Positions 6,353-28,740 of a DNA stretch of 64,000 nt are shown here, one piece after another. Source of the stretch: Flavobacteriales bacterium. GTDB lineage: Bacteria; Bacteroidota; Bacteroidia; Flavobacteriales_F; PHOS-HE28. The position numbers were made by a program, and so were the translations under genes. The stretch lies in the NCBI GenBank assembly GCA_044224725.1, contig JBGAJW010000001.1, forward strand, positions 77,012 through 141,011, written 5' to 3'. Each line of letters starts with the position of its first letter. The stretch's first letter is position 1. Below the pieces are notes generated by a model that did not search any database, was not told where the DNA came from, and saw only the letters and a program-made list of their open reading frames with translations.

Positions 6353-6498
6353 GATGTGGTCCATTAGCCAGCGTATCCAAGTTTACGACGGATCGTTCGT
6401 CAACCACATGCTGCACACCCACCAGGAAGGATGCATGCACAGCGGACCTGCTGGCCGTACACCGACCAACGGAACGCACGGTCGGTTAGCTTTAGACC

Positions 6499-7471: not shown

Positions 7472-9262
7472 TCACTCCAACTTCCGCGACGGCGTGGTGC
7501 GGTCGATCATGAGCACCGCATCGAACTGCGTGGCCAGCACGGTGGGTTGCTCGAAGCCGAAGTCGAAGGCGCTGTAGCCGATGGAGCGCACAGGGCGCGG
7601 GTCGTGGATCCATGTGCTTGTGGTATCCGCTGCCAGTGCGCGCACGTCCAGCAGGAGCGCTGACGCGTGTGTGGGTAGTGCGCGGTGCATGGCCTCTTCC
7701 AAGCTGCCCAAGGGCGCGGGGAAGCAGCGGGCGTCCATCGGTCGGTGGTCCGCGAAACCGCGTGTGGCGCGGTAGCTTCCATCGTAGGTGCCAATGCCCA
7801 CCACACGCAACCGGTCGCCGAAGAGGCGCAGCATGTGGGCGCCCATGCTGGTGCCGCTGGCGAAGCCCGTGCGCCCGATGTGCCCATCATGTGCCCACAC
7901 GGCCATGCGCGTGCCTTCGGGCTGTTGCGCGAGCGTCCAGGCGATGTTGGCGGCCATGCAGCTGTCGCGGATCGAGGGGTTCCACGGATCATGGGCCTGC
8001 GCGGCGCACTGCACCACCACGCGCGCGTTCTGCAAAGCCCAACGGCGTTCCAACGCATTGTCCGGAGGCGTATCCAGCATGCGTTGCGCGATGAGTTCCT
8101 GCGCGCGCTCCGCGTTGGCCTGCCATAGCGCTCCCTCTCCTTCCGCCGGTCGTGGATAGTCGCCCTTGCGCCATGCTTCGCGATGCGGGGCGAGCAGTTC
8201 GCGCACCTGATCGGCGATGGCCGCGTCATGGCGGCGCAGGTAGGCCACCACGCTGTCCATGGGCTGTTGCGGATCCTGCATGTCGAAGCCCACGAACGAG
8301 AGCGGCTGCTTCGGTGCGCGCGCGTTGTAGGCGCGCATCCACTCGATCAGGTCCTTCACCTCCTGCTTGTACCACACCCCGAAGAGGCCGCCCATGGCTT
8401 TCTCCACCGTATCCGTCGCCCCGTTCACATACGCGTTGATGCGTTCCGTGGACAGCTGGTTGGCTTCGATGGCGAACACGGTGAAGCCTTTGCGTTCCAC
8501 CAGGTAGCGGAACAAGTGATGCTTGGCCACGAAGAACTCGTGTGTGCCGTGCGTGCTTTCACCCAAGGAGACCACCTGCGCCGGGCCAACGATGCGGTCG
8601 AACGCTTCATACCCCGCGGGCCATGGGCTGTCCAACGTTGTCGGAAGCTCCAGCACATCGATGGATGCGGCGTGTGCGCGCAAGGCCTCCAGGTCGGCGA
8701 TGGTCGGCGCGGTGCCGCACGGCAGTTCGGTGATCGGTCCTCCATCGGCCGTCAAGGTGAAGGCATCGAACCACACCGGGCCGCTGCTCAGGGCTTTCAC
8801 GGTGATCACGAGCTGGTAGTCGTTCGCATCGATGGGCAGCGCTAGTTCCGCCGACCGCCAGGTGGATGGATCCGTTCGGAGAAAGACCACGCTGTCCACC
8901 TGGCCAGGCTCACCCCAGGTATTGAGGTATACGCAGGCATCAGCCCCAGCGGAGTGGACCGTGAGCGCCACCCGCTTCCCTTGCAGCGATGCCGCAGGCA
9001 GCCGCATCATCATCGCGTGTGCAGGAGGCACCGTGCTGCTGTCCGCCGGTGGGAGGTCGAGCCGGAAACTGTACCGGCCTTCCATCACCGTGGTGCTGTC
9101 CAGGGTGCTGGTGCCCGCGTTCCACATCCAATGCGCTTCCCAACCCCACGGGCGATCGGTGCCGGTTACACCGGGCATCTCGAAGCCCAGGTTCAGCGGT
9201 TGCTGGGCAAGGCCTTGGAGCGCAAGCGCACCGGCAATGAGATAGGTCAATGATCGACGCAT
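7472..9262 (-). CDS. Erythromycin esterase family protein (EreA/EreB-like), secreted, with an extra N-terminal domain.
   Basis: Pattern LGESTHGTHEF...GFTVFAIEAN...YVNG...EWMRAYNA...FVGFDMQD matches the Ere family core. Start moved to MRRSLTY, which is followed by a signal peptide. Confidence 0.75.
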   Translation of the reverse strand: MRRSLTYLIAGALALQGLAQQPLNLGFEMPGVTGTDRPWGWEAHWMWNAGTSTLDSTTVMEGRYSFRLDLPPADSSTVPPAHAMMMRLPAASLQGKRVALTVHSAGADACVYLNTWGEPGQVDSVVFLRTDPSTWRSAELALPIDANDYQLVITVKALSSGPVWFDAFTLTADGGPITELPCGTAPTIADLEALRAHAASIDVLELPTTLDSPWPAGYEAFDRIVGPAQVVSLGESTHGTHEFFVAKHHLFRYLVERKGFTVFAIEANQLSTERINAYVNGATDTVEKAMGGLFGVWYKQEVKDLIEWMRAYNARAPKQPLSFVGFDMQDPQQPMDSVVAYLRRHDAAIADQVRELLAPHREAWRKGDYPRPAEGEGALWQANAERAQELIAQRMLDTPPDNALERRWALQNARVVVQCAAQAHDPWNPSIRDSCMAANIAWTLAQQPEGTRMAVWAHDGHIGRTGFASGTSMGAHMLRLFGDRLRVVGIGTYDGSYRATRGFADHRPMDARCFPAPLGSLEEAMHRALPTHASALLLDVRALAADTTSTWIHDPRPVRSIGYSAFDFGFEQPTVLATQFDAVLMIDRTTPSRKLE

Positions 9263-9415
9263 GGAGGCGCGACAAAATAACCTCGCTTGGGCGCGATTCG
9301 TCACCGCGATGGGTACAGCGCACGCTTGCGCCACGCGGATCAAGCCGATCCCAGTGATGGCGAGCATGCGCTCCATGTTCTCCGCATGTTCTGCGGAGAA
9401 CAGGGCGTGAGCTCC

Positions 9416-10054
9416 TCAGATCAAGCCCTCCCTTACCGCCAGGTTCACCGCGCTGGCCACGCCCTTCACCTGCAGCTTCTCGTAGATGTGGCTCACGTGC
9501 GTGTTCACCGTGGCGTAGCTGATGTTGCATCGCGCCGCGATGATCTTGTAGCTGTAACCCTCGGCCAGCAGCTTCAGGATCTCCAGTTCGCGCTCGCTGA
9601 GCTGGAAGTCGATGGCCTTGCTGTTGGAACCACGCTGCGCGAAGAGCTTCAGCACTTTCGCGGCGATCACCGGCGTCATGGGCGCACCGCCTTGGGTCAC
9701 CTCCACGATGCCCTCGATGAGCTTACCGGGTTGCGTCTGCTTCAGCAGGTAACCGTCCGCGCCGGCGAGGATGGACGAGAAGATGCGCGCGTTGTCCTCC
9801 AGCACGGTCTGCATCAGGATCTTCACGTCCTTGAACTGCTTGCGGATGAGGGTGACGCCCTCGATGCCGTCCACATGCGGCATGTCGATGTCCATGAGCA
9901 CCACATCGGGCGTGGTCTCCATCACGCGACGCACCACCTCGCGGCAATCGGGCCAGGCGCCCACGCAGGTCATGTTGTCCGTGCTGTCGATGAGCAGCTG
10001 CAGCCCTTCGCGGCGCTTGGCGTTGTCATCGAATACGGCTACGCGGATGCTCAT
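9416..10054 (-). CDS. Two-component response regulator, NarL/LuxR family (REC plus LuxR-type HTH).
   Basis: REC domain with D-box (VLMDIDMP) and a C-terminal LuxR HTH (LSERELEILKLLAEGYSYKIIAARCNISYATVNTHVSHIYEKL). Confidence 0.9.
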   Translation of the reverse strand: MSIRVAVFDDNAKRREGLQLLIDSTDNMTCVGAWPDCREVVRRVMETTPDVVLMDIDMPHVDGIEGVTLIRKQFKDVKILMQTVLEDNARIFSSILAGADGYLLKQTQPGKLIEGIVEVTQGGAPMTPVIAAKVLKLFAQRGSNSKAIDFQLSERELEILKLLAEGYSYKIIAARCNISYATVNTHVSHIYEKLQVKGVASAVNLAVREGLI

Positions 10055-10078
10055 CGCTGTTGTCCCTCGCGGGCAAAA

Positions 10079-13000
10079 CTATTCCGTCGCCGTGGGCGCG
10101 TCCGTCATTGCGTCCAATGATTTTGCGCGGCCATCGGGCACGAAACGTAGTTCGATGCGGGTTCCTTTGCCGACTTCGGACGTGATGGTGAGCGTAGCAC
10201 CGAGCTCCGCCGCGCGCTTGCGCATGTTGGGCAGGCCGTTGCCGCCACCGCTGGTGCTGTGCACGTGTGCGGTATCGAAGCCTTTACCGTTGTCGGCGAT
10301 GCTCAGGACGATCTGCGACCGGTCGCGCACCAGCGTCACGCGCAGCTCCTTGCAGCCGCTGTACTTCACCGCATTGTTCACCGCTTCCTTGAAAACGAGG
10401 TAGAGGTTCTTGCGCGCGGACATGTCCAGCGGCAGCGAGCGCAAGGCCGAATCGTGATCGAAGTGCAGCGCGCATCCACGCGTTTCGGTCATGCGCACGG
10501 CGTGGTCGACCATGCGCTTCACCAGGTGCTCCATGTCGTCGTTGTCGGCGTTCACGGCCCATACGATGTCGTTGATGGACTCCAGCACTTGCGTGGTACT
10601 CTCGCTGATACGACCTAGCAGTTCGTTCGCCTCGGGTGCCTTCTGCGCCACCTTCTTCTGCGCCACGGAGCTGTAGAGCGACACGCTGCTGAGCGTTGAA
10701 CCGATCTCGTCGTGCAGGTCGCGTGCGATGCGTTCACGCACGGCCACCACCTTCATGGCCTGCGCCAGCCGGTAGCGGTAGAACGCATAAAGACCACCGC
10801 CGATCAGTAGGAGCACCGCTATGCGGAACCACCAGGTGCCCCACCACGGCGGCTCGATGATCAGCTGGAGCGTGGCCCCTTGCTCGTCCCACACCTCGGC
10901 GCTGTTGCGGCCTTGCACGCGGAAGGTGTAGGTGCCCGCATCCAGGTTGGTGAAGGTGGCCTGGTGCGCAGTGCCCGCGTCAACCCAATCGGTGTGGAAG
11001 CCTTGGAGCTTGTAGCGGAAACGGTTCTTCTGCGGCACGGAGTGGTCCATGCACGCGAAGGAGATCGTGAGGGAGCGCTCGGAGTAGGGCAGTGAGATGC
11101 GCTGCAGGTGGTCCGGTGGTGCTGGGATGACGAAGGCCTTGTCCTCGCCGGCCGGTGCGCCATTCCACTTCACCGGCCTGTTGGCCAGGCCCAGCCCGGT
11201 GATCACGGTCGGGGAAGGAGCGGCCTCGCCGTACATCTCATCGGGATCGAAGTACGTGATGCCGTTCGTGCCGGCGAAGAAGAAGCGCCCGTCGTGGCCG
11301 ATGGCCGCGCTGTAGCGGTTGAACTCGGTGCTGGCGAGCCCATCGTTGCGTGAATACGTGCGTATCGTTCCGCTGCGGGGGTCGAAGCGGCAAAGCCCCT
11401 GATTGGTGCTGACCCACAGGTCGTGGTGCGCATCAGCGAGCATCGCGTAGATGGTGTTGTTCGGCAGTCCGTTCGCGATCGTCAAGGTGCGGCACTCGCC
11501 GCTGCGCATGTCCATCCGCGCCATGCCGCTCTCTTCGGTGCCCACCCAGATGGCCCCGCTCGGGTCGTCGGGATCGAAGCACAACGAGAAGATGCGATCA
11601 CTGGGCAACGAACGGGGATCAGCGGGATCGTGCGTGTGAACGATCCATTTCCCGGATCCCGGTCGCAGTTCGAGCAAGCCCTTGCGCGTGCCGAGCCACA
11701 CGGTGCCATCGCGCGCCAACAGCAACGCCGCCACCATGCGGTAGTCCGATACCGGCAGCGGGAACGGAAGCAGGTGCCGGCCGGTGATCCGTCGTGTGAT
11801 GGGGTCGAAGCGGAGCAGGCGATCGCAGTCGGTGCCTGCGCTTCCGTTCGCCAGGATCCACAGCTCCTCGTCATCGCAATTGATGAGCAGCAGCGGTTCT
11901 TCTTCCGGACCCAGCGGCATGATGTGGAGCCCATCCGACTCATCCGGCCCATGGTACATGAGGTGGTTCGCATCACCCCGCACAGTGACGCAGGCCCACC
12001 AGACACCCGATGCATCACGCGCTACCCCGAACCAACTGGCCATGTGCCCCGCTGCGTTCAGCGCCCTGCCGAAACCGGTCTCCTTTGCAACGCCATCGGG
12101 CGGGTTGATCCAGAGCATCTGCTCGGCCGCCAGGATATACCGGCCCTCGCGATCGGCTTTCAACAACAGGGCGCTCGAACCTTGGAGCATCTGGTGGAAC
12201 CGCCCGGTGAGCGTGCGATGCAATAGCGCGCCGTAGCCGATGGTACCCGCCCAGAGGTTCCCGCTGCGGTCCCTGGCGAAGTTGATGGCGATCGGTCCCC
12301 TCGGTAGACTTTCACCGCTCAGCGTTGCGAAGCGGATGCTTTCCATGGTGCCGTCAGCGAGCGACACACGCGTGGTGCCGGTCGATCCACCATAACCCAA
12401 CCACAGGTGTTCACCATCGAGCAAGTAGAAGCCGGGGTCGCTCTCGGTCAATCCGGTGTTGATGGTGTCCACCGCGCCGCGTGAAGCGGCATCGAAGGCG
12501 ATGATGCTGCCCTGCCGCACCAGCAACATGCGCGCCCGCAGTGTATCGGCGATCAGGCCTGCAGCGTTCGACGTGATGGGGGGGAGCACGATGCTTTTCA
12601 CCGTGGTCCGTGACAGGTCGCCTTTCATGGTCCAGATCACCAGCTCATCCGCGGCAAGGGCCCAGAGCTCATCGTTCGGAGCGAACGCCAGGGCCACGAT
12701 CCCCTCCGCCAGTTGGCCTGCCGGACCACCGTCTGCATGCACCCCGAATACGATCCCCTGTGCACCGAGCACCAGCATGTTCCCCTTGCGATCCTCGGCG
12801 AACTGCCGGATGGAGCTGTTCAGCCCCGGCGTGAGCGGATCCGGTCTGAGCACATGGGTGAAGGCTCCGGTTCGCGGATCATACCGGTCCACGGCTCCGC
12901 CCTCCGAACCGATCCACAGGTCGCCGGAGCGGCTTTCGTAAAGGCTGCTGATGTGGTTGGCGCAGATGCTTGTGCTGTCACGAACGTCGTGCCGGAAGAC

Positions 13001-13231
13001 CGCGTAGCCATAACCATCACTGCGCGCCAGGCCGTCCTTGGTGGCGAACCAGAGGTAGCCCGTGCGGTCCTGGAGTATGGCGCGCACCATGCCCTGCGGC
13101 AGGCCATCGTCCACGGTGATCCATTCCACCGGAAGCGACGTGGTACGCACAGCCACCTGCGCCGTGGATGGCACGGCGGAAAGGCCCGTGCTGATGGCCA
13201 GGATCCCGTTCAGCAGAGGGAGCGCACGCAT
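10079..13231 (-). CDS. Sensor histidine kinase with two-component-regulator beta-propeller domains, a Y_Y_Y domain, a TM helix, HisKA_3 and HATPase_c (Bacteroidota type).
   Basis: Long periplasmic propeller repeats, a TM segment (WWFRIAVLLLIGGGLYAFY), an H-box (DLHDEIGSTLS) and ATPase motifs. It sits directly upstream of the LuxR regulator. Start approximate. Confidence 0.85.
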   Translation of the reverse strand: MRALPLLNGILAISTGLSAVPSTAQVAVRTTSLPVEWITVDDGLPQGMVRAILQDRTGYLWFATKDGLARSDGYGYAVFRHDVRDSTSICANHISSLYESRSGDLWIGSEGGAVDRYDPRTGAFTHVLRPDPLTPGLNSSIRQFAEDRKGNMLVLGAQGIVFGVHADGGPAGQLAEGIVALAFAPNDELWALAADELVIWTMKGDLSRTTVKSIVLPPITSNAAGLIADTLRARMLLVRQGSIIAFDAASRGAVDTINTGLTESDPGFYLLDGEHLWLGYGGSTGTTRVSLADGTMESIRFATLSGESLPRGPIAINFARDRSGNLWAGTIGYGALLHRTLTGRFHQMLQGSSALLLKADREGRYILAAEQMLWINPPDGVAKETGFGRALNAAGHMASWFGVARDASGVWWACVTVRGDANHLMYHGPDESDGLHIMPLGPEEEPLLLINCDDEELWILANGSAGTDCDRLLRFDPITRRITGRHLLPFPLPVSDYRMVAALLLARDGTVWLGTRKGLLELRPGSGKWIVHTHDPADPRSLPSDRIFSLCFDPDDPSGAIWVGTEESGMARMDMRSGECRTLTIANGLPNNTIYAMLADAHHDLWVSTNQGLCRFDPRSGTIRTYSRNDGLASTEFNRYSAAIGHDGRFFFAGTNGITYFDPDEMYGEAAPSPTVITGLGLANRPVKWNGAPAGEDKAFVIPAPPDHLQRISLPYSERSLTISFACMDHSVPQKNRFRYKLQGFHTDWVDAGTAHQATFTNLDAGTYTFRVQGRNSAEVWDEQGATLQLIIEPPWWGTWWFRIAVLLLIGGGLYAFYRYRLAQAMKVVAVRERIARDLHDEIGSTLSSVSLYSSVAQKKVAQKAPEANELLGRISESTTQVLESINDIVWAVNADNDDMEHLVKRMVDHAVRMTETRGCALHFDHDSALRSLPLDMSARKNLYLVFKEAVNNAVKYSGCKELRVTLVRDRSQIVLSIADNGKGFDTAHVHSTSGGGNGLPNMRKRAAELGATLTITSEVGKGTRIELRFVPDGRAKSLDAMTDAPTATE

Positions 13232-13373
13232 CGCTTCTGCGGGAAACTTAGGCATTCGTGTACCGGCGGGAATCATTGGACCCAATGATGCCTGCCGAGG
13301 CCCGGCTCATTGGACACAAGGATTGATGGCCCCTGGCGAACGAAGTTGGTTTGCTCCGCTAGATCCAACGACC

Positions 13374-16300
13374 ATGCGCAGCGCATTCATCCTCCCTTTG
13401 TTCACGTCCATCGCACTGGGCACGCAAGCCCAACAGCTCGTGCAACCGCATGCGCACGATCATGTACAGCAACAGGAACGGACCGGTCCGGGCGGGCCGA
13501 TCGCCAGCTGGGCCGAGGTGCCCGAGTGGGTGCGGCTGATGTACAGCGAGCATCTCGAGGTGCTTCGGGTGATCGGCGCCTACGAGGCCTACTACCGCAC
13601 GCACCCTTTCGTGAAGAACAGCGACACGCAGCACTACAAGCGGTGGTTGCACGAACTCAGCCAGAGCGTGGAACCTATGGATCCTGCGGGGCGTGATGCG
13701 TACCGCCAAGGACTGCGGGACTATGTGGATGCGTCGGCGGCCTTGCTCGCGGAACGCTCGGCGAACTGGACCTGCATCGGGCCGTTCGATTACGACCATA
13801 ACGCGGCGGCCAAGAGCTACGCGGCCGGTGCGGCCCATGTGTACACGGTGGAGAAGAGCCCCGTGAACCCGAACCTGATCTGGGCCGGAACAGCGACCGC
13901 CGGCGTGTGGAAGAGCACGGACAACGGACTGACCTGGACCAACGCATCGAAGGAAGTGATGGGCAAATTCTGCCAAGCGTTGGAGCCGGATCCCTTCCAT
14001 GCGAACACGCTCTTTGCCGGCTTGGGGTCCGACCTGATGAAGACCACGGACGGCGGGAGCACCTGGACCGAAGTGGGTGGCGGTCTGTTCACCCCGGGCA
14101 TACGGAGGATCTTCGACATCGTCGTGCACCCCACGAACAGCCTGCGCGTGATGGCGGCCTGTACCGATGGCCTCTGGTGCAGTAGCGATGGGGGCGCCAA
14201 CTTCACCCAGTTGCAGACCGGCTATTGGCAAGAGATCGAATTGAAACCCGGCTCACCGGAAACCGTGTATGCCGTGAAGATGAACTTATACGGCACTGGG
14301 GGACCGACCTGGAACCGGATCGAGTTCTGGCGCGGCACCTCCTTCGGCGGTGGCACATGGACGAGCATGGGCGGGGGCTGGCCCAGTCCGCCAGCGATCG
14401 ATTCGCTGAAGACCATGTTGCGCGCGGAGATCGCTGTTTCGCCTGCCGCGCCCAATACGGTCACCGCGCTGGTCACCGGTTCGGCGAACGGCGGCAACGG
14501 GCTCTATGGTATCTACCGGAGCACGGATTCCGGAACCACGTGGGCCTTCCAATGCTGCGGAGCGGGTCCCGGTGGCGTGGCCTCACTGACCAACCCCAAC
14601 CCCATGGGGTACGAAAAGGACGGCACCGGCGATGGCGCACAGCACGATTACAACGTGGCCTTGAGCGTGGATCCCGCGAACGTGAACAAGGTGCACCTGG
14701 GCGGCATCATGCATTGGGTAAGCACCGATGGCGGGGCCTCATTCACCTGTCCTGCCAGTTGGAAAGAAAGTGGATCGCCGAGCTACATCCATTCGGACGT
14801 GCACGAGATCCAGCAATACGGGAACGACGTGTGGGTGGCCTGCGACGGCGGGATCTACTACAGCACGGATGGAGGCGCTACGTTCAACAAGCGGATGAAC
14901 GGCATCGCAGGCACCGACTTCTGGGGATTCGGCGCAGGCGGTTGGAGCGGAGCGCAGGTGATGGGCGGAGGTGCGTACCATAACGGCACCTTGCTGAAGG
15001 ACAACAACGTGTACACCACCGGTTGGGTGAGCACCGACGGCGGCGATGGATCACGCGGCATGGTGCATCCGCAAGATGATCGGCGCGTGTTGACGGACTA
15101 CGGGTACAAGGTGCTGAGCGGCGACCGCACCGTGAACAACGTGAACGCACCCTGGTCGGTGCTACCGAACACGGCTGCCCCTGCCGGTCGCACCAGCGAG
15201 GTGGCCTGGCACCCGAACCTGGCCTACACCGGCTATTTCGGCCATGGCGACAGTTTGATGCGGACCGACGACAACGGTGTCACCTTCAAAGTGGTCAAGA
15301 TCTTCGGCGGAGTGAAGCGGGTCACCAACGTGCAGGTGGCGTACAGCGCACCCGAACACATTTATGCGTGTACCGAATCGGTGGGGGTGCCGGGTGCTCC
15401 AGCGTCCGAGATCTGGCACAGCGCGGATGGCGGTGATACGTGGGCCCTGATCACCCCGGGGGCCGCGGTGCTCGCGCCCGATACCAACGATCAGGTACCG
15501 TGGGACATCGCGATCAGCGAAACGGCACCGCTCACGATCTGGGCGGCACGTGTTCCCTTCGGCGACGCCATCGCCTTGAACGGGAAGCTGGTGTTCAAGA
15601 GCACCAATGGGGGCAGCACCTGGTCGAACCTCTCCACGTTGCTGTTGAACACCGAGACACCGACGAACATCGTGCGTGCACGCGGCACGGTGGACGGCGT
15701 GTACCTGGGCACGCGCCGCGCCGTGTACTACCACAGCACGGCCACCTTCGGTTGGATCCTGAGCAACGCCGGCCTCCCGTTCAACACCTTCTCCACGTCC
15801 CTGAAGATCAACTACCGCCTGGGCAAGATCCGCAACGCCACCGACCATAGCGTGTGGGAAAGCGACCTGGAAGAAACGTTCACCCCGATCGCCAACTTCA
15901 GCGCCAGTACCGTTGAGCCCGCCTGCGGCGAACCCGTGCAGCTCTTTGACAACAGCGTGCTCTCGGAGAACGGCGCCTTCTGGGAATGGCATTTCCCCGG
16001 TGGCATTCCCGAATGGAGCTACGTGCGCAACCCGGTGGTCACCTTCGCCGGTTACGACCCCTACGATGTCACGCTCACGGTGACCGATGCGCACGGCACG
16101 AGCACGAAGACCATCACCGACTTCATCAAGCCGAAGACCACCAGCATGGCACCTCCGTTCTTGGAGCGTGGCGAAGGCCAGTTGGATGCGCCCTGGGGAT
16201 GGCGGTTGGAGAACCCGGACCAGTCCACCACCTGGGACAATGTCGGGCCGCTCCGGGATCCGATCTACCCGGCGGGGCATGCCTACAAGATCAACAACTA

Positions 16301-17417
16301 CCTCTACAATGCGCCAGGACAGGAGGATCGACTGATCACGCCCACCATCAACCTGGCGGGCAATTCAGGCACGCACCTGAAATTCTACCACGCCTACGCT
16401 CCCTATGGACAAGGCCTGGACGATGGGCTGCGCGTGGAGATCACCGGCACATGTGGGAACATTTGGAGCACGATCTACGAGGAGTCGGGCGCTGCCTTGG
16501 GCACCGTACCCACGACCACGGAGAGCTGGACGCCCACGGCCATCACCGATTGGGAATCGCATGACATCGACATCAGCGCTTACGACGGTGGGCGCATCGC
16601 GATCCGGTTCATCGGCGTTAACGGCTGGGGCAATAACCTCTACCTCGACAACATCCAGATCGAAAGCAGCGGTGTTCGCCTGGATGTGGCCGTAGCCCTG
16701 GAAGGCGCGATGATCCCCGCCCTCGGCCTCATGCGCGACGACCTGCGCGTTGCGGGCCTGCTGCCCAGCTTGGAGCCGTACACGGGTCTTGGCTTTTCCT
16801 CCTACCCCTTCGGTGGTGAAACGGTCTTCCCCACCGTGTTGCAGCGGTCCGACGATCAAGCGCCGGTGGACTGGGTATTGGTGGAACTGCGCAGCGCAGT
16901 AGACCCGAGCGTGATAGTGGATTCGCATGCGGGCCTGGTCACCCGCGACCTGCATGTGGTGGGTAATGATGGGACCTCACCGCTCTCCTTCCGCGCCGCT
17001 CCTGGCAACTACTACGTGAGCGTGCGGCACCGCAACCACTTGGGGTGCATGACCGCATCGCCCATCGCCTTGGGTACGGCAAGCGTGAACGCGGTGTCCT
17101 TCGTGGATCCAAGCACACCCACTTATGGCACCAACGCACGCAAGGACGTGAACGGCGGCGCCACCAAAGCGCTCTGGATGGGCAATGTGGTGAACAACGG
17201 CAACCTCAAGTACACGGGATCGGGGAATGATCGCGATCCCATCCTGCTCCGTGTGGGAAGTACGTTGCCCACGAACGTGGTATCCGGCTATCATGTGGAG
17301 GATTGCAACATGGACGGTAACGTGAAGTACACCGGCAGCGGCAACGACCGCGATCCCATCCTGATCAATATCGGTAGCACCACGCCGAACAACGTGCGGA
17401 CGCAGCAACTGCCGTGA
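13374..17417 (+). CDS. Giant secreted BNR/Asp-box repeat protein with a PKD domain. It has a C-terminal roughly 250-aa shared module that ends in tandem dockerin-like repeats and a terminal QLP.
   Basis: Signal peptide (MRSAFILPLFTSIALGTQAQ). Multiple S-x-D-x-G-x-T-W Asp-box motifs. PKD-like segment (VTLTVTDAHGTS). C-terminus ...KYTGSGNDRDPILLRVGS...DCNMDGNVKYTGSGNDRDPILINIGSTTPNNVRTQQLP. Confidence 0.8.
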   Translation: MRSAFILPLFTSIALGTQAQQLVQPHAHDHVQQQERTGPGGPIASWAEVPEWVRLMYSEHLEVLRVIGAYEAYYRTHPFVKNSDTQHYKRWLHELSQSVEPMDPAGRDAYRQGLRDYVDASAALLAERSANWTCIGPFDYDHNAAAKSYAAGAAHVYTVEKSPVNPNLIWAGTATAGVWKSTDNGLTWTNASKEVMGKFCQALEPDPFHANTLFAGLGSDLMKTTDGGSTWTEVGGGLFTPGIRRIFDIVVHPTNSLRVMAACTDGLWCSSDGGANFTQLQTGYWQEIELKPGSPETVYAVKMNLYGTGGPTWNRIEFWRGTSFGGGTWTSMGGGWPSPPAIDSLKTMLRAEIAVSPAAPNTVTALVTGSANGGNGLYGIYRSTDSGTTWAFQCCGAGPGGVASLTNPNPMGYEKDGTGDGAQHDYNVALSVDPANVNKVHLGGIMHWVSTDGGASFTCPASWKESGSPSYIHSDVHEIQQYGNDVWVACDGGIYYSTDGGATFNKRMNGIAGTDFWGFGAGGWSGAQVMGGGAYHNGTLLKDNNVYTTGWVSTDGGDGSRGMVHPQDDRRVLTDYGYKVLSGDRTVNNVNAPWSVLPNTAAPAGRTSEVAWHPNLAYTGYFGHGDSLMRTDDNGVTFKVVKIFGGVKRVTNVQVAYSAPEHIYACTESVGVPGAPASEIWHSADGGDTWALITPGAAVLAPDTNDQVPWDIAISETAPLTIWAARVPFGDAIALNGKLVFKSTNGGSTWSNLSTLLLNTETPTNIVRARGTVDGVYLGTRRAVYYHSTATFGWILSNAGLPFNTFSTSLKINYRLGKIRNATDHSVWESDLEETFTPIANFSASTVEPACGEPVQLFDNSVLSENGAFWEWHFPGGIPEWSYVRNPVVTFAGYDPYDVTLTVTDAHGTSTKTITDFIKPKTTSMAPPFLERGEGQLDAPWGWRLENPDQSTTWDNVGPLRDPIYPAGHAYKINNYLYNAPGQEDRLITPTINLAGNSGTHLKFYHAYAPYGQGLDDGLRVEITGTCGNIWSTIYEESGAALGTVPTTTESWTPTAITDWESHDIDISAYDGGRIAIRFIGVNGWGNNLYLDNIQIESSGVRLDVAVALEGAMIPALGLMRDDLRVAGLLPSLEPYTGLGFSSYPFGGETVFPTVLQRSDDQAPVDWVLVELRSAVDPSVIVDSHAGLVTRDLHVVGNDGTSPLSFRAAPGNYYVSVRHRNHLGCMTASPIALGTASVNAVSFVDPSTPTYGTNARKDVNGGATKALWMGNVVNNGNLKYTGSGNDRDPILLRVGSTLPTNVVSGYHVEDCNMDGNVKYTGSGNDRDPILINIGSTTPNNVRTQQLP

Positions 17418-20804: not shown

Positions 20805-23800
20805 CTAGGGAAGCTGCTCTATTCGTGCGCCGTTCGGTGTGGTACTGCCAACGTTCACCAGGATGGGATCGCGGTCATTGCCGCTGCCCGCGTATTTCAC
20901 TTGGCCATTCATGTTCACATCCCGCGTGGAGTAGGCGGTAACGCTGTTGTTCGGTGTGGTGCTGCCCACAGTGGTCAGGATCGGATCACGGTCATTCCCG
21001 CTGCCGGTGTACTTCACTTCCTTGTTGAAAGAGACATCGCCGGCCCAGAGCGCCTGCACGGGAAAAGACCCGGTGATGGACTTCCGTGCGGCAACGCCGA
21101 AGGTGGCCGTCGTTGCGGAAGTGAAGTCCACCACGGTCGGTATCGTATTGAGTGCGACGTTGCCGTCGGTCATCGCCCCCAAGTGGTTCCGGTGCCGCAC
21201 CGCAACGTAGAACATGCCAGCGGACAGGGGGAACCTCACGGCAGAGCTTCCATCGGCGTTCACCACGTCCCCATCGCGCTGGAGCAGCGCGCTGCGTGTG
21301 GCCAGCACCGTTGCCGGATCGAAGAGGCTACGCAGTTCGACGACCACCCAATCCACGATGGCATCGCTTCCGGTGACAGCGAGCACCGCCGCAGTAGTGG
21401 TCTCTCCACCGCCGTCGCCTGCGTGCGCGTATCCCATGGCGGAATACGGTTCGAGAAAAGGCAGCAGACCACCGGCGCGCAGGGCGTCGGCCATCAGACC
21501 TGTGCCGCTGTTGTAAGGTCCATCCAGCACCACGCGCGGCGCTACCGCAACGAAGGGAGTCGTTACGGATATATCCACCTGGCCCATCACCGACCACGGG
21601 CCTCCGGCCCCGCTGTTGCCCTGATCATCGATGGTGATGGTGAAGTTGGTCGGGCCACCGAAGTCCGTGGCGGGCAAGAATGTCACCGTGTCAATGGCGG
21701 AATTGATATCGGCCAGCGTGCCGATGAAGGTCATGATCGCGTCCACACTGCCATCACCCACTGTGAAGACAAGGCCGTTCATGCCCGAGATCGTAAGCGT
21801 TCCGTAGGGCGCCGCCAAGGTGACCATCAACTCACCGGCCCCGGCGTCGACATCGATGATGGAAAGCGCGTTGCCGTTCGCCTGTGAAAGGATCAAGGGT
21901 GTGTTCATCGGCATGATCTGCTGCACCGGCCCCAGGTTTATCGGCGGATCGTTCACCGCGGCAACGGTGATGGTCACCACGTCCTCATCGCTCAAGGGCC
22001 CGCCACCGCCGGTGTGACCGAGGTCATTGGTAGTGATGGTCAGCGAAGTCGGGCCGGTGAAGTCCTGCGCCGGTATGAAGAGCAGACCATCCAAGCCCGC
22101 ATTGAGATACGCGATCGGACCGGTAAAGGTCATCGCAGCACTGCCATCGCCCCCCCCGGTGAAGGTGATCCCATTGGTGCTGCCCATGAGCAGGATACCC
22201 GTACCGCTCGTTACCGAAAGCGAGACCTCCACATCGGCCGGGCCCGCGTCCTGGTCACTGACGGTGAACATGGTACCGTCAATGCTGGAGAACATGATGG
22301 GCGTGTCCTCCTCCGTGATGGCCGGACCGGGTACCGAGTTCACCGGGGCCACATTGGCGATGAAGCCCATGGACGCCACGTCCTTGGCGGCGGAGAAGGC
22401 TGTACTGCCGCCGTTCACCGAAGCGTTCGCCGTGCTTCCGTTCGTGCCGGCTGTCATGTCCCACGCGCGGAACGTGAGGGCCGAGGGCAACGCGTTGCTG
22501 AAGCCCGGCGACGGCTGGAAATACACGCGAGTGCCCGCGTCCGCGGCCAGCAGGCGACTGAGCGTATTGCTGGGGATCCCCATCGGGTTCCAGCTCGTGC
22601 CGTTGTTCAGGGAGTAATACCAACTGCCGTTCGCGACGTAGGCCGCGGTGATCGCGATGCCATAGCTGCTCGCGCCGACGTCATGCAGATTGTCCAAGCC
22701 GCCGACCGTGCTGGCCGGATCGATGAGCGCGGAGACGAGTGTGCCCACCGGCCCTATGGGTGGAGGCGCGTTCGCGGCCACGTTGTTCAGCACCGGGCTG
22801 CGGCTATTGTCCAGCATGGGCGCGCTGTTGCGCAGCAGCCAGGCCACGGTGGCCGCCGCGCCGGCGTCCGCGGCGAAGGTACTGGCGGCCAGTGCGGTGT
22901 AGGGTCCGACTGTGCCGCCAGCGGTGCGGAACAAGTGGTTCACTTCCAAGGATACGCCGGCGATGTTGCTGCCGCTTGAAGCGCGATCCACGTCCTCGAT
23001 CGATCCCGCCGGTGGCGTCCATGTGACGGAATTCGCGAACTCGTGCAAACTCATGATCAATGCGGGGAATGCCGAGGGCAGGATCGCCGGCGCCGTGTGC
23101 GACAAGCTCGCTGGTGTGGCCTGCGACAAGGCGACCTGCACCGGACCGGGAGCAATGGAGTTGATGCCGGGCAACGCCATGGACGTGGCCACATAGGCCG
23201 TGCTGCCTCCCAGTGTCACGGTATAGGTTGGCTCAGAGGCGGTAACCACACGCCAGCCAGCCCACAGCCGACTGGTGGTGGTGCTGCTCTGCAACTGGTC
23301 CACCAGGGTGGTGAAATGCGAAGTGGTGATGGTCTGTGCCGTGCTGGTGGCGATGACCAGGAGCATCACGTCCCCGACCTGCTTCAAGGAAAGCGGCGGC
23401 ACCAGCAGGGTTGCACTGGCGGGAGAATTGGTACTGACCACCTGACGTACACCGAAGGCGTAGCACGTGGCGATATCCGTGGAGATCGAGAAGGCGGTCG
23501 TTCCCCCATTGGTCGTTGTGCTCACAATACTTCCGTTCGTGCCACTGGAGCGGTCCCACGCGCGGAACTCGATCGTGAGATCACCCGGTCCCGTGGTGGC
23601 ATTGAAGTACAGACGGGTGTTCGCATCCGCCGCCAATAGCAGGGACGAGGCACTGCTGACCGCCGGCACCACGGACCATGTCGCACAGTTGTTCGTAGTG
23701 AAATACCAGGTGCCACCGGTGCTGACGGCCGTAAGGGCGATACCGAGCTGGGCCCAGGCCGTCTCGTTTTCGGCCGCATCGGTGTCGAGCACATTGTCGA

Positions 23801-24053
23801 CGCCGTCCGCCGGATTGGCCGCATCCACGAGCAAGGCGATGGGTGTGCCGACCAAGCTGCCGTTCGCCGGTGGACCGAGCCCGGCGTACGTATCCAAGAG
23901 CACCGGGCTCTTGCTCACGTCGAGGATCGGGGCCTCGTTCTGGCCCAATGTGGGCAAAGGAAGCGCTGCGGCCCTTGTCCCCACGTTCGCGCACGTAAGA
24001 CACAGGCCACAGAGGGCCAGAACACGGAGAGCGATCGTGAAGGAGCGGCGCAT
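20805..24053 (-). CDS. Giant secreted adhesin-like protein with repeated cadherin-like / VCBS-type (VNDPP/NSVP) domains. It carries the same C-terminal roughly 250-aa dockerin-like module as 13374-17417.
   Basis: Signal peptide (MRRSFTIALRVLALCGLCLT). Repeated roughly 100-aa units beginning VNDPPINLGP / VNSVPGPAITEED. C-terminus ...VKYTGSGNDRDPILTTVGS...VNMNGQVKYAGSGNDRDPILVNVGSTTPNGARIEQLP. Confidence 0.8.
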   Translation of the reverse strand: MRRSFTIALRVLALCGLCLTCANVGTRAAALPLPTLGQNEAPILDVSKSPVLLDTYAGLGPPANGSLVGTPIALLVDAANPADGVDNVLDTDAAENETAWAQLGIALTAVSTGGTWYFTTNNCATWSVVPAVSSASSLLLAADANTRLYFNATTGPGDLTIEFRAWDRSSGTNGSIVSTTTNGGTTAFSISTDIATCYAFGVRQVVSTNSPASATLLVPPLSLKQVGDVMLLVIATSTAQTITTSHFTTLVDQLQSSTTTSRLWAGWRVVTASEPTYTVTLGGSTAYVATSMALPGINSIAPGPVQVALSQATPASLSHTAPAILPSAFPALIMSLHEFANSVTWTPPAGSIEDVDRASSGSNIAGVSLEVNHLFRTAGGTVGPYTALAASTFAADAGAAATVAWLLRNSAPMLDNSRSPVLNNVAANAPPPIGPVGTLVSALIDPASTVGGLDNLHDVGASSYGIAITAAYVANGSWYYSLNNGTSWNPMGIPSNTLSRLLAADAGTRVYFQPSPGFSNALPSALTFRAWDMTAGTNGSTANASVNGGSTAFSAAKDVASMGFIANVAPVNSVPGPAITEEDTPIMFSSIDGTMFTVSDQDAGPADVEVSLSVTSGTGILLMGSTNGITFTGGGDGSAAMTFTGPIAYLNAGLDGLLFIPAQDFTGPTSLTITTNDLGHTGGGGPLSDEDVVTITVAAVNDPPINLGPVQQIMPMNTPLILSQANGNALSIIDVDAGAGELMVTLAAPYGTLTISGMNGLVFTVGDGSVDAIMTFIGTLADINSAIDTVTFLPATDFGGPTNFTITIDDQGNSGAGGPWSVMGQVDISVTTPFVAVAPRVVLDGPYNSGTGLMADALRAGGLLPFLEPYSAMGYAHAGDGGGETTTAAVLAVTGSDAIVDWVVVELRSLFDPATVLATRSALLQRDGDVVNADGSSAVRFPLSAGMFYVAVRHRNHLGAMTDGNVALNTIPTVVDFTSATTATFGVAARKSITGSFPVQALWAGDVSFNKEVKYTGSGNDRDPILTTVGSTTPNNSVTAYSTRDVNMNGQVKYAGSGNDRDPILVNVGSTTPNGARIEQLP

Positions 24054-27340: not shown

Positions 27341-28669
27341 TCAGAGCCGCACCATGGTCCGGTTGGACATCATTCCGTCACCGCGTAACCGGACCACATA
27401 CGTTCCTGCAGGGAGATCATTCACAGGGACTTCGATACGCAACACCCCAAGAAGCTTCAAGGACCTCACTACGCGACCGGTCGCGTCGATGATCTCGACC
27501 GCAAAGGGACCGCTTTCATCCAAGGTGAGCGTGATCATATCCGTTGCCGGATTGGGCTGAATACCGAAGGACGCCCCCTCCTCTGCCGGAATGTCCATCA
27601 CGATGCCGTTCGTGCGCAGCGGCCGGATGTGCGTGGAGGCATAGCCGTGCGCATCATCGAAGAAATAGAGGTCGTAGATCCGGCGCGAATGATTGAACCC
27701 GCTCGTGCTGAATTGCTCATGCCAAGTTTCGCCATCATCATCGCTGATGAGGATGAGACCTTCTGTCCCATCCTGCCGGTAAGCGCTGGCGAAGCCCATC
27801 CCGTCGGGCCGGAAAGTGACGCTGGTGAGCACGTAGCTCCCTGAAATGCTCACCGATGCCGGTATCCATGTATCGCCCCCATCCATGGTGCGCAACATGG
27901 CCCCATCACTGCGCGAAGCGACACCGATGCTCTCGTTCAAGAAGGCCACGTCCGAGAAACCGGTGAGGTTGCTCGTGTGTACCAGTTGCCAATCCGCGCC
28001 ACCGTTGATCGTCCGATAGATCGCACCGCTATCGGCCAGTTGCACGCCGTTGTTCACAAGCCTCTTATACCCCCCGCACGCCGCGAAGCCTAATTGATCG
28101 TTCACGAAGTGCAGGCGTGAAACGGGTTGGCCGGGAAGCACCGCGATGTTCGTCCAAGTCGCGCCTGTATCGGTGCTCATATCGATGATGCCATCACCGG
28201 CGTTGTTCCCACCGGCAGCGAACGCCACAAGATCGTCGCGCATGCGGATAGCACGGTAGTAGCGCCCGATGCCGGTGCGCACACTGTCGAAACCCATCGG
28301 GTAGTCCGGGAACAAATAGGGACGCACCACCACGCTCCGGTCGTACAGCTCGTGGCCAGCAGCCATGTACAACGGCCTTCCGTTGGTGACCTTCACATCG
28401 ATGTCTTCCATGTTCGTGGAAGGCTCGTACCAGAGGTAATACCCACCGCTCAAATCCCCATTATCGGTGAGGATGAGGCCACCTTCGGTCGCGACAGAAT
28501 TCGGTCCGGGATTGTTGGCACCGTAGACGAAAAGGCCCGAATCCGGGTCCTGGAACGCGCAGGCCTGGAAGTGGATCGCGGTGGAGAACACACCACCGCC
28601 CACCCATTGGGCGTGCAGCGGGGTGAAGGGAAGGAAGAGCACGATGGGAAATGTCAAGGTCCGGTTCAT
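27341..28669 (-). CDS. Secreted BNR/Asp-box (Ycf48-/sortilin-like propeller) protein with a type-A T9SS C-terminal sorting domain.
   Basis: Signal peptide. Motifs DGGDTW, DTGATWT, NGGADWQ. C-terminal IQPNPATDMITL...GTYVVRL T9SS CTD. Confidence 0.8.
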   Translation of the reverse strand: MNRTLTFPIVLFLPFTPLHAQWVGGGVFSTAIHFQACAFQDPDSGLFVYGANNPGPNSVATEGGLILTDNGDLSGGYYLWYEPSTNMEDIDVKVTNGRPLYMAAGHELYDRSVVVRPYLFPDYPMGFDSVRTGIGRYYRAIRMRDDLVAFAAGGNNAGDGIIDMSTDTGATWTNIAVLPGQPVSRLHFVNDQLGFAACGGYKRLVNNGVQLADSGAIYRTINGGADWQLVHTSNLTGFSDVAFLNESIGVASRSDGAMLRTMDGGDTWIPASVSISGSYVLTSVTFRPDGMGFASAYRQDGTEGLILISDDDGETWHEQFSTSGFNHSRRIYDLYFFDDAHGYASTHIRPLRTNGIVMDIPAEEGASFGIQPNPATDMITLTLDESGPFAVEIIDATGRVVRSLKLLGVLRIEVPVNDLPAGTYVVRLRGDGMMSNRTMVRL

Positions 28670-28740
28670 GGTGCGAAGTTGGTGAGTGCGGTACAAGCAG
28701 ACGGGCATCGGGTTCAAAGGGCTGCCCCATCTTCGCGTCG

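What the first reader, a model, noticed from the sequence alone, without database searches (positions are those of the whole stretch)
16650..17417. Shared, unrecognised C-terminal module with tandem dockerin/EF-hand-like repeats and a terminal QLP in two giant secreted proteins that lack the T9SS CTD
Proteins 13374-17417 (BNR/PKD) and 20805-24053 (cadherin/VCBS-like) have unrelated bodies. Their last roughly 250 aa are nevertheless alignable (GLLPxLEPY...VDWVxVELRS...VRHRNHLGxMT...). Both end with two copies of D-x-N-x-D/N-G-x-VKYTGSGNDRDPIL followed by GSTTPN...QLP-stop. The D-x-N-x-DG-x-V spacing is that of calcium-binding dockerin or EF-hand loops. Five neighbouring secreted proteins use a canonical type-A T9SS CTD, but these two do not. 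This module may therefore be a distinct export, anchoring or cohesin-binding signal. The two genes flank a propeller-type sensor kinase, a LuxR regulator and a secreted erythromycin-esterase-like gene.
Basis: seen in the sequence. Interest (0 to 1): 0.65.

Follow-up and report, generated by a model that had tools for sequence, protein, structure and literature searches.

The report
Divergent X-dockerin module ending two secreted proteins
The shared ~250-residue tail of these two large secreted Flavobacteriales proteins is a real, very widespread and unannotated module, a beta-sandwich fused to a strongly diverged dockerin, which most likely plugs secreted proteins onto cohesin-bearing partners rather than acting as a secretion signal.

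Summary
The last ~250 aa of protein A (13374-17417, +) and protein B (20805-24053, -) align at 49% identity (E 6e-67), while their bodies are unrelated. Neither tail matches any Pfam or NCBIfam model, including the T9SS type A and B CTDs and Dockerin_1.

The module is not confined to two paralogues. A profile search finds 13,017 cluster representatives, almost always with the module at the extreme C-terminus. Some uncultured Flavobacteriales MAGs carry at least 7-8 such genes, attached to many different passenger domains.

AlphaFold2 gives one compact unit (pLDDT 93): a ~155-aa beta-sandwich plus a duplicated ~40-aa loop-helix unit.

The module is homologous over its whole length (hhalign probability 100%, E 2e-53) to relatives in Ignavibacteriae, Calditrichia, Rhodothermales and Bacteroidales. 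In those relatives Pfam calls the second half Dockerin_1 above threshold. About one in six of them also carry an N-terminal cohesin, and two members of the window's own subfamily carry a cohesin-like domain just below Pfam's threshold. The window's version has a 4-residue insertion (YTGS) in each calcium loop.

The terminal QLP, together with a conserved Trp, fits the published dockerin Trp-Pro "clasp".

Best reading: an X-dockerin-like docking module. The route across the outer membrane is unresolved. This is a new variant of a known kind.

The parts
13374..17417 (+). Gene for protein A (1347 aa). It has a signal peptide, Sortilin/BNR propeller repeats, a PKD domain, a choice-of-anchor J domain and the C-terminal module.
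   Evidence: ORF. Pfam Sortilin-Vps10 at 2e-17 and PKD_4. NCBIfam choice_anch_J at residues 936-1096, 44.2 bits against a cutoff of 30. The exact protein is present in the public collection. The signal peptide MRSAFILPLFTSIALGTQAQ was read by eye.
16671..17141 (+). Protein A, beta-sandwich (X-module-like) half of the module. It contains the motifs LEG..GLM.D.LR, EPY, VDWVLVELR, and RHRNHLG.
   Evidence: AF2 model with pLDDT 93.4; strands at model residues 20-161. Invariant residues D85, W86, R92 and R139 in 111 sequences. The best fold matches are weak: Ole e 1, transthyretin-like domains and X-dockerin chains.
17142..17414 (+). Protein A, diverged dockerin half. It consists of two loop-helix repeats: loop 1 at 17181-17246 (degenerate) and loop 2 at 17301-17363 (DCNMDGNVKYTGSGNDRDPIL). 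The terminal QLP lies at 17406-17414.
   Evidence: Helices at residues 206-213 and 245-252 start straight after the invariant D205 and D244. hhalign against relatives' C-terminal halves gives P 8.8e-7, with a 4-residue insertion in each loop. The full-module hhalign gives probability 100%.
20805..24053 (-). Gene for protein B (1082 aa). It has a signal peptide, a body of bacterial cadherin-like / tandem-95-type repeats, and the C-terminal module.
   Evidence: ORF. Pfam Cadherin_4 at 7e-5. NCBIfam tand_rpt_95, a weak match. The exact protein is present in the public collection.
21084..21554 (-). Protein B, beta-sandwich half of the module.
   Evidence: BLASTP alignment to protein A. The motifs VDWVVVELR and RHRNH are at the expected positions.
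20808..21083 (-). Protein B, diverged dockerin half. It contains DVSFNKEVKYTGSGNDRDPIL and DVNMNGQVKYAGSGNDRDPIL and ends in EQLP.
   Evidence: 64% identity to A's C-terminal half.

Best explanation
Each protein ends in one copy of a two-part docking module. A ~155-aa beta-sandwich, analogous to the X-module of type II/III dockerins, packs rigidly against a ~90-aa duplicated calcium-loop/helix unit. That unit is an evolutionarily diverged dockerin: each 12-residue loop is lengthened by four residues (YTGS), the exiting helices are short, and only the second loop keeps the full D-x-N-x-D-G ligand set.

The module is appended to many unrelated passenger domains. Its most likely job is to attach those passengers to cohesin-bearing proteins, non-covalently and probably in a calcium-dependent way. 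Some of those partners carry the same module themselves and so could act as adaptors or chain-formers. This would build surface-associated protein assemblies in uncultured Flavobacteriales and other FCB-group bacteria.

The invariant terminal Pro of QLP, with the conserved Trp two residues before the first loop glycine, most likely forms the dockerin intramolecular clasp. That explains why the reading frame always ends there.

Shown here: homology, architecture, distribution and the cohesin fusions. Inferred: calcium binding, cohesin binding, the clasp and surface location. Unknown: how these CTD-less proteins cross the outer membrane.
For: 1. Real, shared module. The two tails are 49% identical, E 6e-67.
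2. Large family. 13,017 representatives match at E<=1e-3 and 4,644 at <=1e-30. In nearly all of the best 150, the match ends at the last residue. 99 of 120 close homologues end in QLP and the rest in Q[IVM]P or similar.
3. Modular use. Passenger domains are diverse (MAM, PKD, PA14, P_proprotein, DUF5122, Kelch, Laminin_G). Homologous passengers occur with either the module or a type A CTD. In protein A the module directly follows a choice-of-anchor J domain.
4. One compact fold. pLDDT 93.4, pTM 0.89. The best PDB matches include the X-dockerin chains 2b59_B, 4u3s_B and 4wi0_B (E 0.03-0.1).
5. Full-length homology to FCB relatives. hhalign probability 100%, E 2.1e-53, 203 columns spanning both halves.
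6. Dockerin identity of those relatives. Their second half is Pfam Dockerin_1 above the gathering cutoff: P0304 32.7 bits, P0346 32.5 bits, P0367 26.0 bits. Their C-terminal halves align to the CelD/CelS dockerins at P 5e-6.
7. Cohesin partners in the wider family. About 20 of 120 such relatives are signal peptide + Pfam Cohesin + module. The cohesin profile hits only solved cohesins in the PDB (1g1k_A at 3.8e-6).
8. Cohesin partners in the window's subfamily. P0196 and P0125, with KYTGSGNDRD-type loops and a QLP end, also start with a cohesin-like domain. Pfam gives 23.2 and 17.6 bits against a cutoff of 24.1. A family-specific cohesin HMM built from the distant relatives gives 2.5e-15 for P0196.
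9. Clasp residues. W187 is present in 109/111 sequences, G189 in 110/111 and P266 in 111/111. A Trp(-1/-2)-Pro clasp that stabilises dockerins is documented in PMC3821032.
Against: - The window's own sequences do not reach Pfam Dockerin_1 or the EF-hand models even at E<=10. Pfam does detect a canonical dockerin elsewhere in one family member, P0055.
- Direct hhalign of the window subfamily's C-terminal half against three dockerins is not significant.
- The C-terminal half modelled alone (pLDDT 80) gives only noise in Foldseek against the PDB.
- No cohesin was found in the window or in about 1.2 Mb around module genes in 80 related loci.
- A word-index search and a metagenome scan with the P0196 cohesin found nothing.
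- The first loop lacks a position-3 ligand across the family.
- The beta-sandwich is more conserved than the dockerin half and has a striking RHRNH strand. This hints at a function of its own.
- No route across the outer membrane is identified.
Confidence: 0.55

Rival explanations
1. The module is a third, lineage-specific class of T9SS C-terminal secretion signal. Its dockerin ancestry would be incidental. The translocon or a shuttle protein recognises the module, which replaces the type A CTD on these cargoes.
For: - The module is strictly C-terminal with an invariant last residue.
- Its carriers are Sec-signal-bearing, adhesin-like proteins of a T9SS phylum with no other CTD.
- The same passenger types and the same gene arrays use either a type A CTD or the module.
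- T9SS components and cargo are encoded nearby: a PorE-like gene in 7 loci and Por_Secre_tail neighbours.
Against: - There is no similarity to the type A or B CTD models. A crude hhalign against 8 neighbouring putative CTDs, one of them a false positive, gives probability below 1%.
- The last domain is not a 70-100-aa beta-sandwich.
- One relative, P0197, carries three tandem copies. That is typical of a binding module, not a signal.
- The conserved C-terminal end has a simpler explanation, the dockerin clasp.
- No PorP/SprF-like or other dedicated partner gene recurs next to module genes, within the limits of the neighbour survey.
Confidence: 0.15
2. The module is a cohesin-independent anchor or adhesion domain. 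The conserved beta-sandwich (RHRNH strand, D85/W86/R92) and the calcium loop bind a cell-surface or environmental glycan or anionic polymer. This would resemble the many non-cellulosomal dockerin-like modules that have no cohesin partner.
For: - The sandwich half is the most conserved part and is rich in invariant Arg, His, Asp and Trp.
- Cohesins were not found near module genes in the Flavobacteriales loci.
- Triple tandem copies in P0197 resemble cell-wall- or glycan-binding repeats.
- Weak similarity to transthyretin-like/CarboxypepD_reg and Y_Y_Y sandwiches.
Against: - The recurrent fusion of the module to bona fide cohesins (about 1 in 6 of the distant relatives, and two near-threshold cases in the window's subfamily) argues for a cohesin-dockerin system.
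- There is no match to any carbohydrate-binding family.
Confidence: 0.2
3. The similarity reflects a recently duplicated, lineage-private domain of no general significance.
For: None beyond the fact that both copies lie within 8 kb of each other in the window.
Against: - The two copies are only 49% identical, and each is closer to homologues from other genomes (up to 58-61%).
- 13,017 clusters match across several FCB phyla.
Confidence: 0.01

Closest known systems
X-module-dockerin dyad (type II XDoc) of Clostridium thermocellum CipA/ScaA (PDB 2B59, 4U3S, 4WI0, 4FL4)
   Same: - An Ig-like beta-sandwich lies directly N-terminal to a duplicated calcium-loop/helix dockerin and is predicted to form one rigid unit with it.
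- The unit sits at the C-terminus of the carrier.
- It has an aromatic N-terminal residue and a C-terminal residue suitable for a clasp.
- These chains are among the best PDB fold matches.
   Different: - The fold match is weak (E 0.03-0.1, TM 0.37-0.52).
- There is no sequence similarity of the sandwich to clostridial X-modules.
- The loops are 16 rather than 12 residues long, the helices are about 8 residues, and the first loop is degenerate.
- The host is a Gram-negative, T9SS-bearing bacterium, and the passengers are adhesin-like rather than glycoside hydrolases.
Non-cellulosomal cohesin- and dockerin-like modules (Peer et al. 2009, FEMS Microbiol Lett; cited from my own knowledge, the paper is not in the library) and Pfam Dockerin_1 (PF00404) / Cohesin (PF00963)
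   Same: - Distant relatives of the module reach PF00404 above threshold and are fused to PF00963 cohesins.
- The concept of cohesin-dockerin pairs outside cellulosomes is established.
   Different: - The window's subfamily is not detected by PF00404.
- The obligatory conserved sandwich (LEGPY, VDWVxVELR, RHRNH) has no Pfam or NCBIfam model.
- I found no paper describing it.
T9SS type A CTD (Por_Secre_tail, PF18962 / TIGR04183)
   Same: - Found at the extreme C-terminus of many unrelated secreted or surface proteins of Bacteroidota.
- Present in multiple copies per genome.
- Interchangeable with the module on homologous passengers.
   Different: - There is no sequence or fold resemblance.
- The module is three times larger.
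- Its last subdomain is alpha/beta rather than a beta-sandwich.

Membership tests
Dockerin (Pfam PF00404; type I-III dockerins) | Two tandem segments, each a calcium-binding loop followed by a helix | tested here: met
   The unit G-[DN]-x-x-x-[ND]-G-x-[LVI]-K-Y-T-G-x-x-N-D-R-D-P-I-L is duplicated. Helices at 206-213 and 245-252 start right after the invariant D205 and D244.
Dockerin (Pfam PF00404; type I-III dockerins) | Canonical 12-residue EF-hand-like loop with ligands at positions 1, 3, 5 and 12 in both repeats | tested here: not met
   Both loops carry a 4-residue insertion (YTGS) before the position-12 Asp. Loop 1 has no conserved position-3 ligand. Loop 2 keeps D229, N231, D/N233 and G234.
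Dockerin (Pfam PF00404; type I-III dockerins) | Score at or above the curated cutoff of the family model (22.9 bits) | tested here: not met
   No hit for A, B or any of 111 close homologues on the module, even at E<=10. Homologous relatives P0304, P0346 and P0367 do pass, at 26-32.7 bits.
Dockerin (Pfam PF00404; type I-III dockerins) | Profile-level homology to bona fide dockerins | tested here: inconclusive
   The direct comparison gives P 0.063. The transitive route is stronger: window subfamily to FCB subfamily at P 8.8e-7 for the half and E 2e-53 for the full module, then FCB subfamily to CelD/CelS at P 5e-6.
Dockerin (Pfam PF00404; type I-III dockerins) | Fold match to solved dockerins | tested here: inconclusive
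Dockerin (Pfam PF00404; type I-III dockerins) | A cognate cohesin encoded by the same organism, and binding to it | tested here: inconclusive
   Cohesin + module fusions exist in the family, and two near-threshold cases (P0196, P0125) occur in the window's subfamily. None was found in the window or in the 80 loci. Binding cannot be tested with these tools.
X-dockerin dyad (type II/III) | Beta-sandwich module immediately upstream of the dockerin and packed against it | tested here: met
   A single high-confidence unit with pTM 0.89 and no low-pLDDT linker. This rests on a predicted model only.
T9SS type A CTD | Match to PF18962 / TIGR04183, and a 70-100-aa beta-sandwich as the last domain | tested here: not met
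   No hit at E<=1 in Pfam or NCBIfam. Neighbouring genes do hit. The last subdomain is a helix-containing repeat. A crude hhalign against local putative CTDs gives probability below 1%.
T9SS type B CTD | Match to TIGR04131 / PF13585, and an adjacent porP/sprF-like gene | tested here: not met
   No hit in Pfam or NCBIfam. No recurring PorP/SprF-like neighbour was seen in 80 loci. Only clusters 2-9, 11 and 15 of the recurrent neighbour clusters were scanned with Pfam.
T9SS cargo in general | T9SS-dependent export and CTD removal | not testable with these tools
   All carriers come from uncultured MAGs, and no proteomic data were available.

The most novel reading that the evidence does not exclude
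FCB-group bacteria, including uncultured Flavobacteriales, would run a large, undescribed cohesin/X-dockerin network that displays adhesins and enzymes on a Gram-negative surface. In this network the X-dockerin module itself would substitute for the T9SS CTD. It would do so either as a new class of secretion signal or by piggy-backing on cohesin-bearing, CTD-tagged carriers through the translocon.
Probability: 0.15. Interest if true: 0.8.

Novelty: new variant of a known kind. Interest (0 to 1): 0.5.

Why it matters
A module present in more than 13,000 protein clusters has no Pfam or NCBIfam model, and its carriers are annotated as 'hypothetical' or, misleadingly, 'hemagglutinin'.

Recognising it as an X-dockerin relative, and finding it fused to cohesins, points to cohesin-dockerin assembly as a common way of organising surface proteins in Gram-negative FCB bacteria. 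These bacteria are abundant in activated sludge and sediments. Until now T9SS CTD sorting has been the only framework for such proteins.

It also raises a concrete, testable question for the T9SS field: how do large, CTD-less, adhesin-like proteins leave the periplasm?

A family model would improve annotation at once. The module and its cohesins could also provide new orthogonal docking pairs for protein engineering.

Tried and rejected
1. Pfam and NCBIfam scans of both tails and of 111 homologues found nothing on the module.
2. A PDB sequence-profile search with the module alignment gave only one chance hit.
4. The dockerin-like half was modelled alone and searched with Foldseek against the PDB. 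It returned only RRM/PII noise, so a structural dockerin match could not be claimed.
5. Direct hhalign of the window subfamily's C-terminal half against a 3-sequence dockerin alignment was not significant.
6. A search for a conserved partner gene around 80 loci found none. Neighbours are other secreted proteins, PorE-like genes, Reg_prop kinase/LuxR pairs and housekeeping genes.
7. A cohesin HMM search of the window and all loci was negative. The only exceptions were the known fusion proteins and a non-significant hit (E 0.037) just before the CTD of a giant protein in L083. Pfam did not confirm that hit.
8. A word-index protein search and a metagenome scan with the P0196 cohesin both came back empty.
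9. P0265 looked like module + type A CTD. Its contig is frameshift-ridden, and another frame reads ...LSTQVP-stop, so I do not use it as evidence.
10. Four literature searches found no description of this family.
11. 'Recent duplication' and 'chance motif' were rejected on the numbers above.
Full report
**Observation**

The window encodes protein A (13374-17417, +, 1347 aa) and protein B (20805-24053, -, 1082 aa). Both exact sequences are called genes on a 143,456-bp NCBI contig, and a 652-aa member of protein A's cluster is annotated as coming from a Flavobacteriales MAG.

BLASTP aligns only their last ~257 residues, at 49% identity and E 6e-67. The bodies are unrelated:
- A has Sortilin/BNR repeats, a PKD domain and a choice-of-anchor J domain.
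- B has cadherin-like / tandem-95 repeats.

The diagnostic motifs (VDWVxVELR, RHRNH, GSGNDRD twice, QLP-stop) occur only at these two places in the window. No Pfam or NCBIfam model hits either tail at E<=1. Neighbouring genes do match the T9SS type A CTD model: 27344-28717 at 32.3 bits and 4823-6364 at 26.6 bits.

The D-x-N-x-D-G part is intact only in the second repeat. The kinase, LuxR and esterase genes lie to the left of A, not between A and B. Only two to three of the five claimed CTD neighbours could be verified.

**Distribution**

With A's last 266 aa as query, 948 proteins were found, and the best 120 are 47-58% identical (71% for one partial sequence, P0010, over 67% of the query). 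All 120 carry the module at the very C-terminus. 99 end in QLP and the others in QIP, QVP, QMP and similar.

An exhaustive profile search of 1.84 billion representatives gave 13,017 hits at E<=1e-3 and 4,644 at <=1e-30. In almost all of the best 150, the match ends at the last residue of proteins of 319-3228 aa.

The best 80 are all in uncultured Flavobacteriales/Bacteroidota MAGs. Several loci come from the same genome, and module genes often sit in same-strand arrays. For example, JBGAGX01 has at least 8 module genes in 4 loci.

Passenger domains are highly diverse. Homologous passengers occur with either the module or a type A CTD. This is the behaviour of a portable C-terminal targeting or docking module, not of a lineage-private duplication.

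**Structure**

AlphaFold2 with 111 sequences gives one compact unit (pLDDT 93.4, pTM 0.89). It has a beta-sandwich at residues ~20-161 and then two repeats of strand, 8-residue helix and strand.

Foldseek against the PDB finds nothing at E<=1e-3. The best weak matches are Ole e 1, the X-dockerin chains of type II cohesin-dockerin complexes (4wi0_B, 4u3s_B and 2b59_B at E 0.03-0.1) and transthyretin-like domains.

The C-terminal 91 aa modelled alone (pLDDT 80) gave only noise. On structure alone, then, the dockerin idea is not established.

**Homology route to dockerin**

One hit of the profile search, P0197, carries three tandem divergent copies whose loops look canonical (DINLSGIVTVGD). Searching with one of those copies found 276 proteins. 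Where a source names the organism, they come from Ignavibacteriae, Calditrichia, Rhodothermales, Bacteroidales and 'Bacteroidetes' MAGs.

These proteins share the same sandwich motifs (LEGPY, VDWVLVELR, RHRNHLxIMS). In three of them Pfam calls the following segment Dockerin_1 above its gathering cutoff: P0304 at 32.7 bits, P0346 at 32.5 and P0367 at 26.0.

The profile-profile comparisons were:
- Window subfamily against this subfamily, full module: probability 100%, E 2.1e-53, over 203 columns spanning both halves.
- Window subfamily against this subfamily, C-terminal halves alone: P 8.8e-7.
- The relatives' C-terminal halves against the cellulosomal CelD/CelS dockerins: P 5e-6. The dockerin sequences were verified against the PDB.
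- Window subfamily directly against those dockerins: not significant.

The alignments show that the window's version differs by a four-residue insertion (YTGS) in each loop.

Column statistics show loop 2 keeping D229 (111/111), N231 (97/111), D/N233 and G234. The invariant 'NDRD' supplies the position-12 Asp. Loop 1 has lost the position-3 ligand. The predicted helices begin directly after D205 and D244, as the exiting helix of an F-hand does (the comparison rests on my own knowledge).

**Cohesins**

About 20 of the 120 distant relatives are ~385-aa proteins made of a signal peptide, a Pfam Cohesin domain (25-33 bits, cutoff 24.1) and the module. A profile of these N-terminal domains hits solved cohesins and known cohesin-like domains of sialidase and NagJ in the PDB (1g1k_A at 3.8e-6, 2vn5_A at 4.6e-6).

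Two members of the window's own subfamily also begin with a cohesin-like domain. P0196 and P0125 have KYTGSGNDRD-type loops and a QLP end. Pfam gives them 23.2 and 17.6 bits, both below the 24.1 cutoff. The family-specific HMM built from the distant relatives gives 2.5e-15 for P0196. P0196 sits next to Por_Secre_tail and SprB/PKD genes.

In a 5.64-Mb circular contig, the cohesin-module gene P0270 lies between two giant HYR/PKD proteins. The upstream one ends in a type A CTD.

No cohesin was detected in the window or in about 1.2 Mb of Flavobacteriales loci around module genes. Two further searches with the P0196 cohesin found nothing. The partner in the window's organism therefore remains unidentified.

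**The terminal QLP**

Slutzki et al. 2013 (PMC3821032) showed that dockerins are stabilised by an intramolecular clasp. In ScaADoc this is a Trp just before the first loop glycine stacking on a C-terminal Pro. They found related clasps in other dockerin structures, including a Trp at position -2 in the C. thermocellum type II dockerin.

The module has L186-W187-x-G189 (104, 109 and 110 of 111 sequences) and an invariant last residue P266. The distant relatives have an aromatic residue in the same place and end in QVP. This is the most economical explanation for why the frame always stops after QLP. It is inferred from sequence only, because I could not inspect the model's coordinates.

**Mechanism and rivals**

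The best-supported reading (confidence about 0.55) is an X-dockerin-like docking module that ties diverse secreted passengers to cohesin-bearing proteins.

The T9SS-signal rival (about 0.15) rests on strict C-terminality, the absence of any other CTD, and interchangeability with type A CTDs. It has no similarity support. It also fits poorly with triple tandem copies and with the dockerin ancestry.

The cohesin-independent binding rival (about 0.2) draws on the very conserved, Arg/His-rich sandwich and the lack of nearby cohesins.

How these proteins cross the outer membrane is unresolved.

No recurrent dedicated neighbour gene exists. The Reg_prop kinase and LuxR next to protein A recur in about five other loci, probably through synteny.

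**Novelty**

The kinds involved are known: dockerin, X-module and non-cellulosomal cohesin-dockerin pairs. This large FCB family, its conserved sandwich and the loop-insertion variant in Flavobacteriales are not covered by Pfam (2025 copy) or NCBIfam (2026). I found no description in four literature searches.

I rate it a new variant of a known kind, with interest 0.5.

Noticed in passing
Related proteins P0016, P0020, P0038 and P0040: These short secreted proteins consist of a signal peptide, 2-7 tandem 'F/Y-x-GG-x-GRGD' repeats and then the module. The repeat is unexplained.
   Followed up: no
Related proteins P0013, P0024 and P0034: These ~315-aa proteins have a small N-terminal unit ('SAGG...SWSIGE...TQGFQQP') followed directly by the module. 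NCBI names P0034 'hemagglutinin protein', which looks like a legacy name with no support here.
   Followed up: no
Related protein P0055: This protein carries a canonical Pfam Dockerin_1 domain at its N-terminal end (residues 11-60, 24.5 bits) and the module at its C-terminus. That makes two dockerin-type units in one protein.
   Followed up: partly
Related protein P0197: This protein has three tandem copies of a divergent version of the module at the C-terminus of a 1083-aa protein. It is the only multi-copy case among 392 proteins examined.
   Followed up: partly
Window 9416-13285 (-), and loci L025, L040, L052, L054 and L070: A Reg_prop/Y_Y_Y hybrid histidine kinase lies close to and divergent from a module gene in the window and in about five other loci. 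In the window a LuxR-type response regulator sits next to it. This could be synteny or regulation.
   Followed up: partly
Window 27344-28717 (-): This 458-aa protein has BNR/Sortilin-type repeats, the same passenger class as protein A, but ends in a type A T9SS CTD (Por_Secre_tail, 32.3 bits). The window therefore holds both C-terminal solutions for one passenger type.
   Followed up: partly
Seven loci, for example L026 1106-3112 (+): A PorE-like gene (TPR + PD40 beta-propeller + OmpA) lies within 1-6 genes of a module gene in seven loci.
   Followed up: no
L083 1-21149 (5.64-Mb circular contig): The cohesin + module gene P0270 sits between a 5972-aa and a 7834-aa HYR/PKD protein. The 5972-aa protein ends in a type A CTD, and the region just before that CTD gives a non-significant cohesin-HMM hit (E 0.037). 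Pfam does not confirm the hit.
   Followed up: partly
Window 7475-9376 (-): This 634-aa protein has an erythromycin-esterase domain at residues 293-627 and an unassigned ~290-aa N-terminal region.
   Followed up: no
L084 3001-4200: P0265 appears to read from the module into a type A CTD-like sequence. An alternative frame, however, gives '...LSTQVP-stop', and the region is full of short broken ORFs, so an assembly frameshift is likely.
   Followed up: yes
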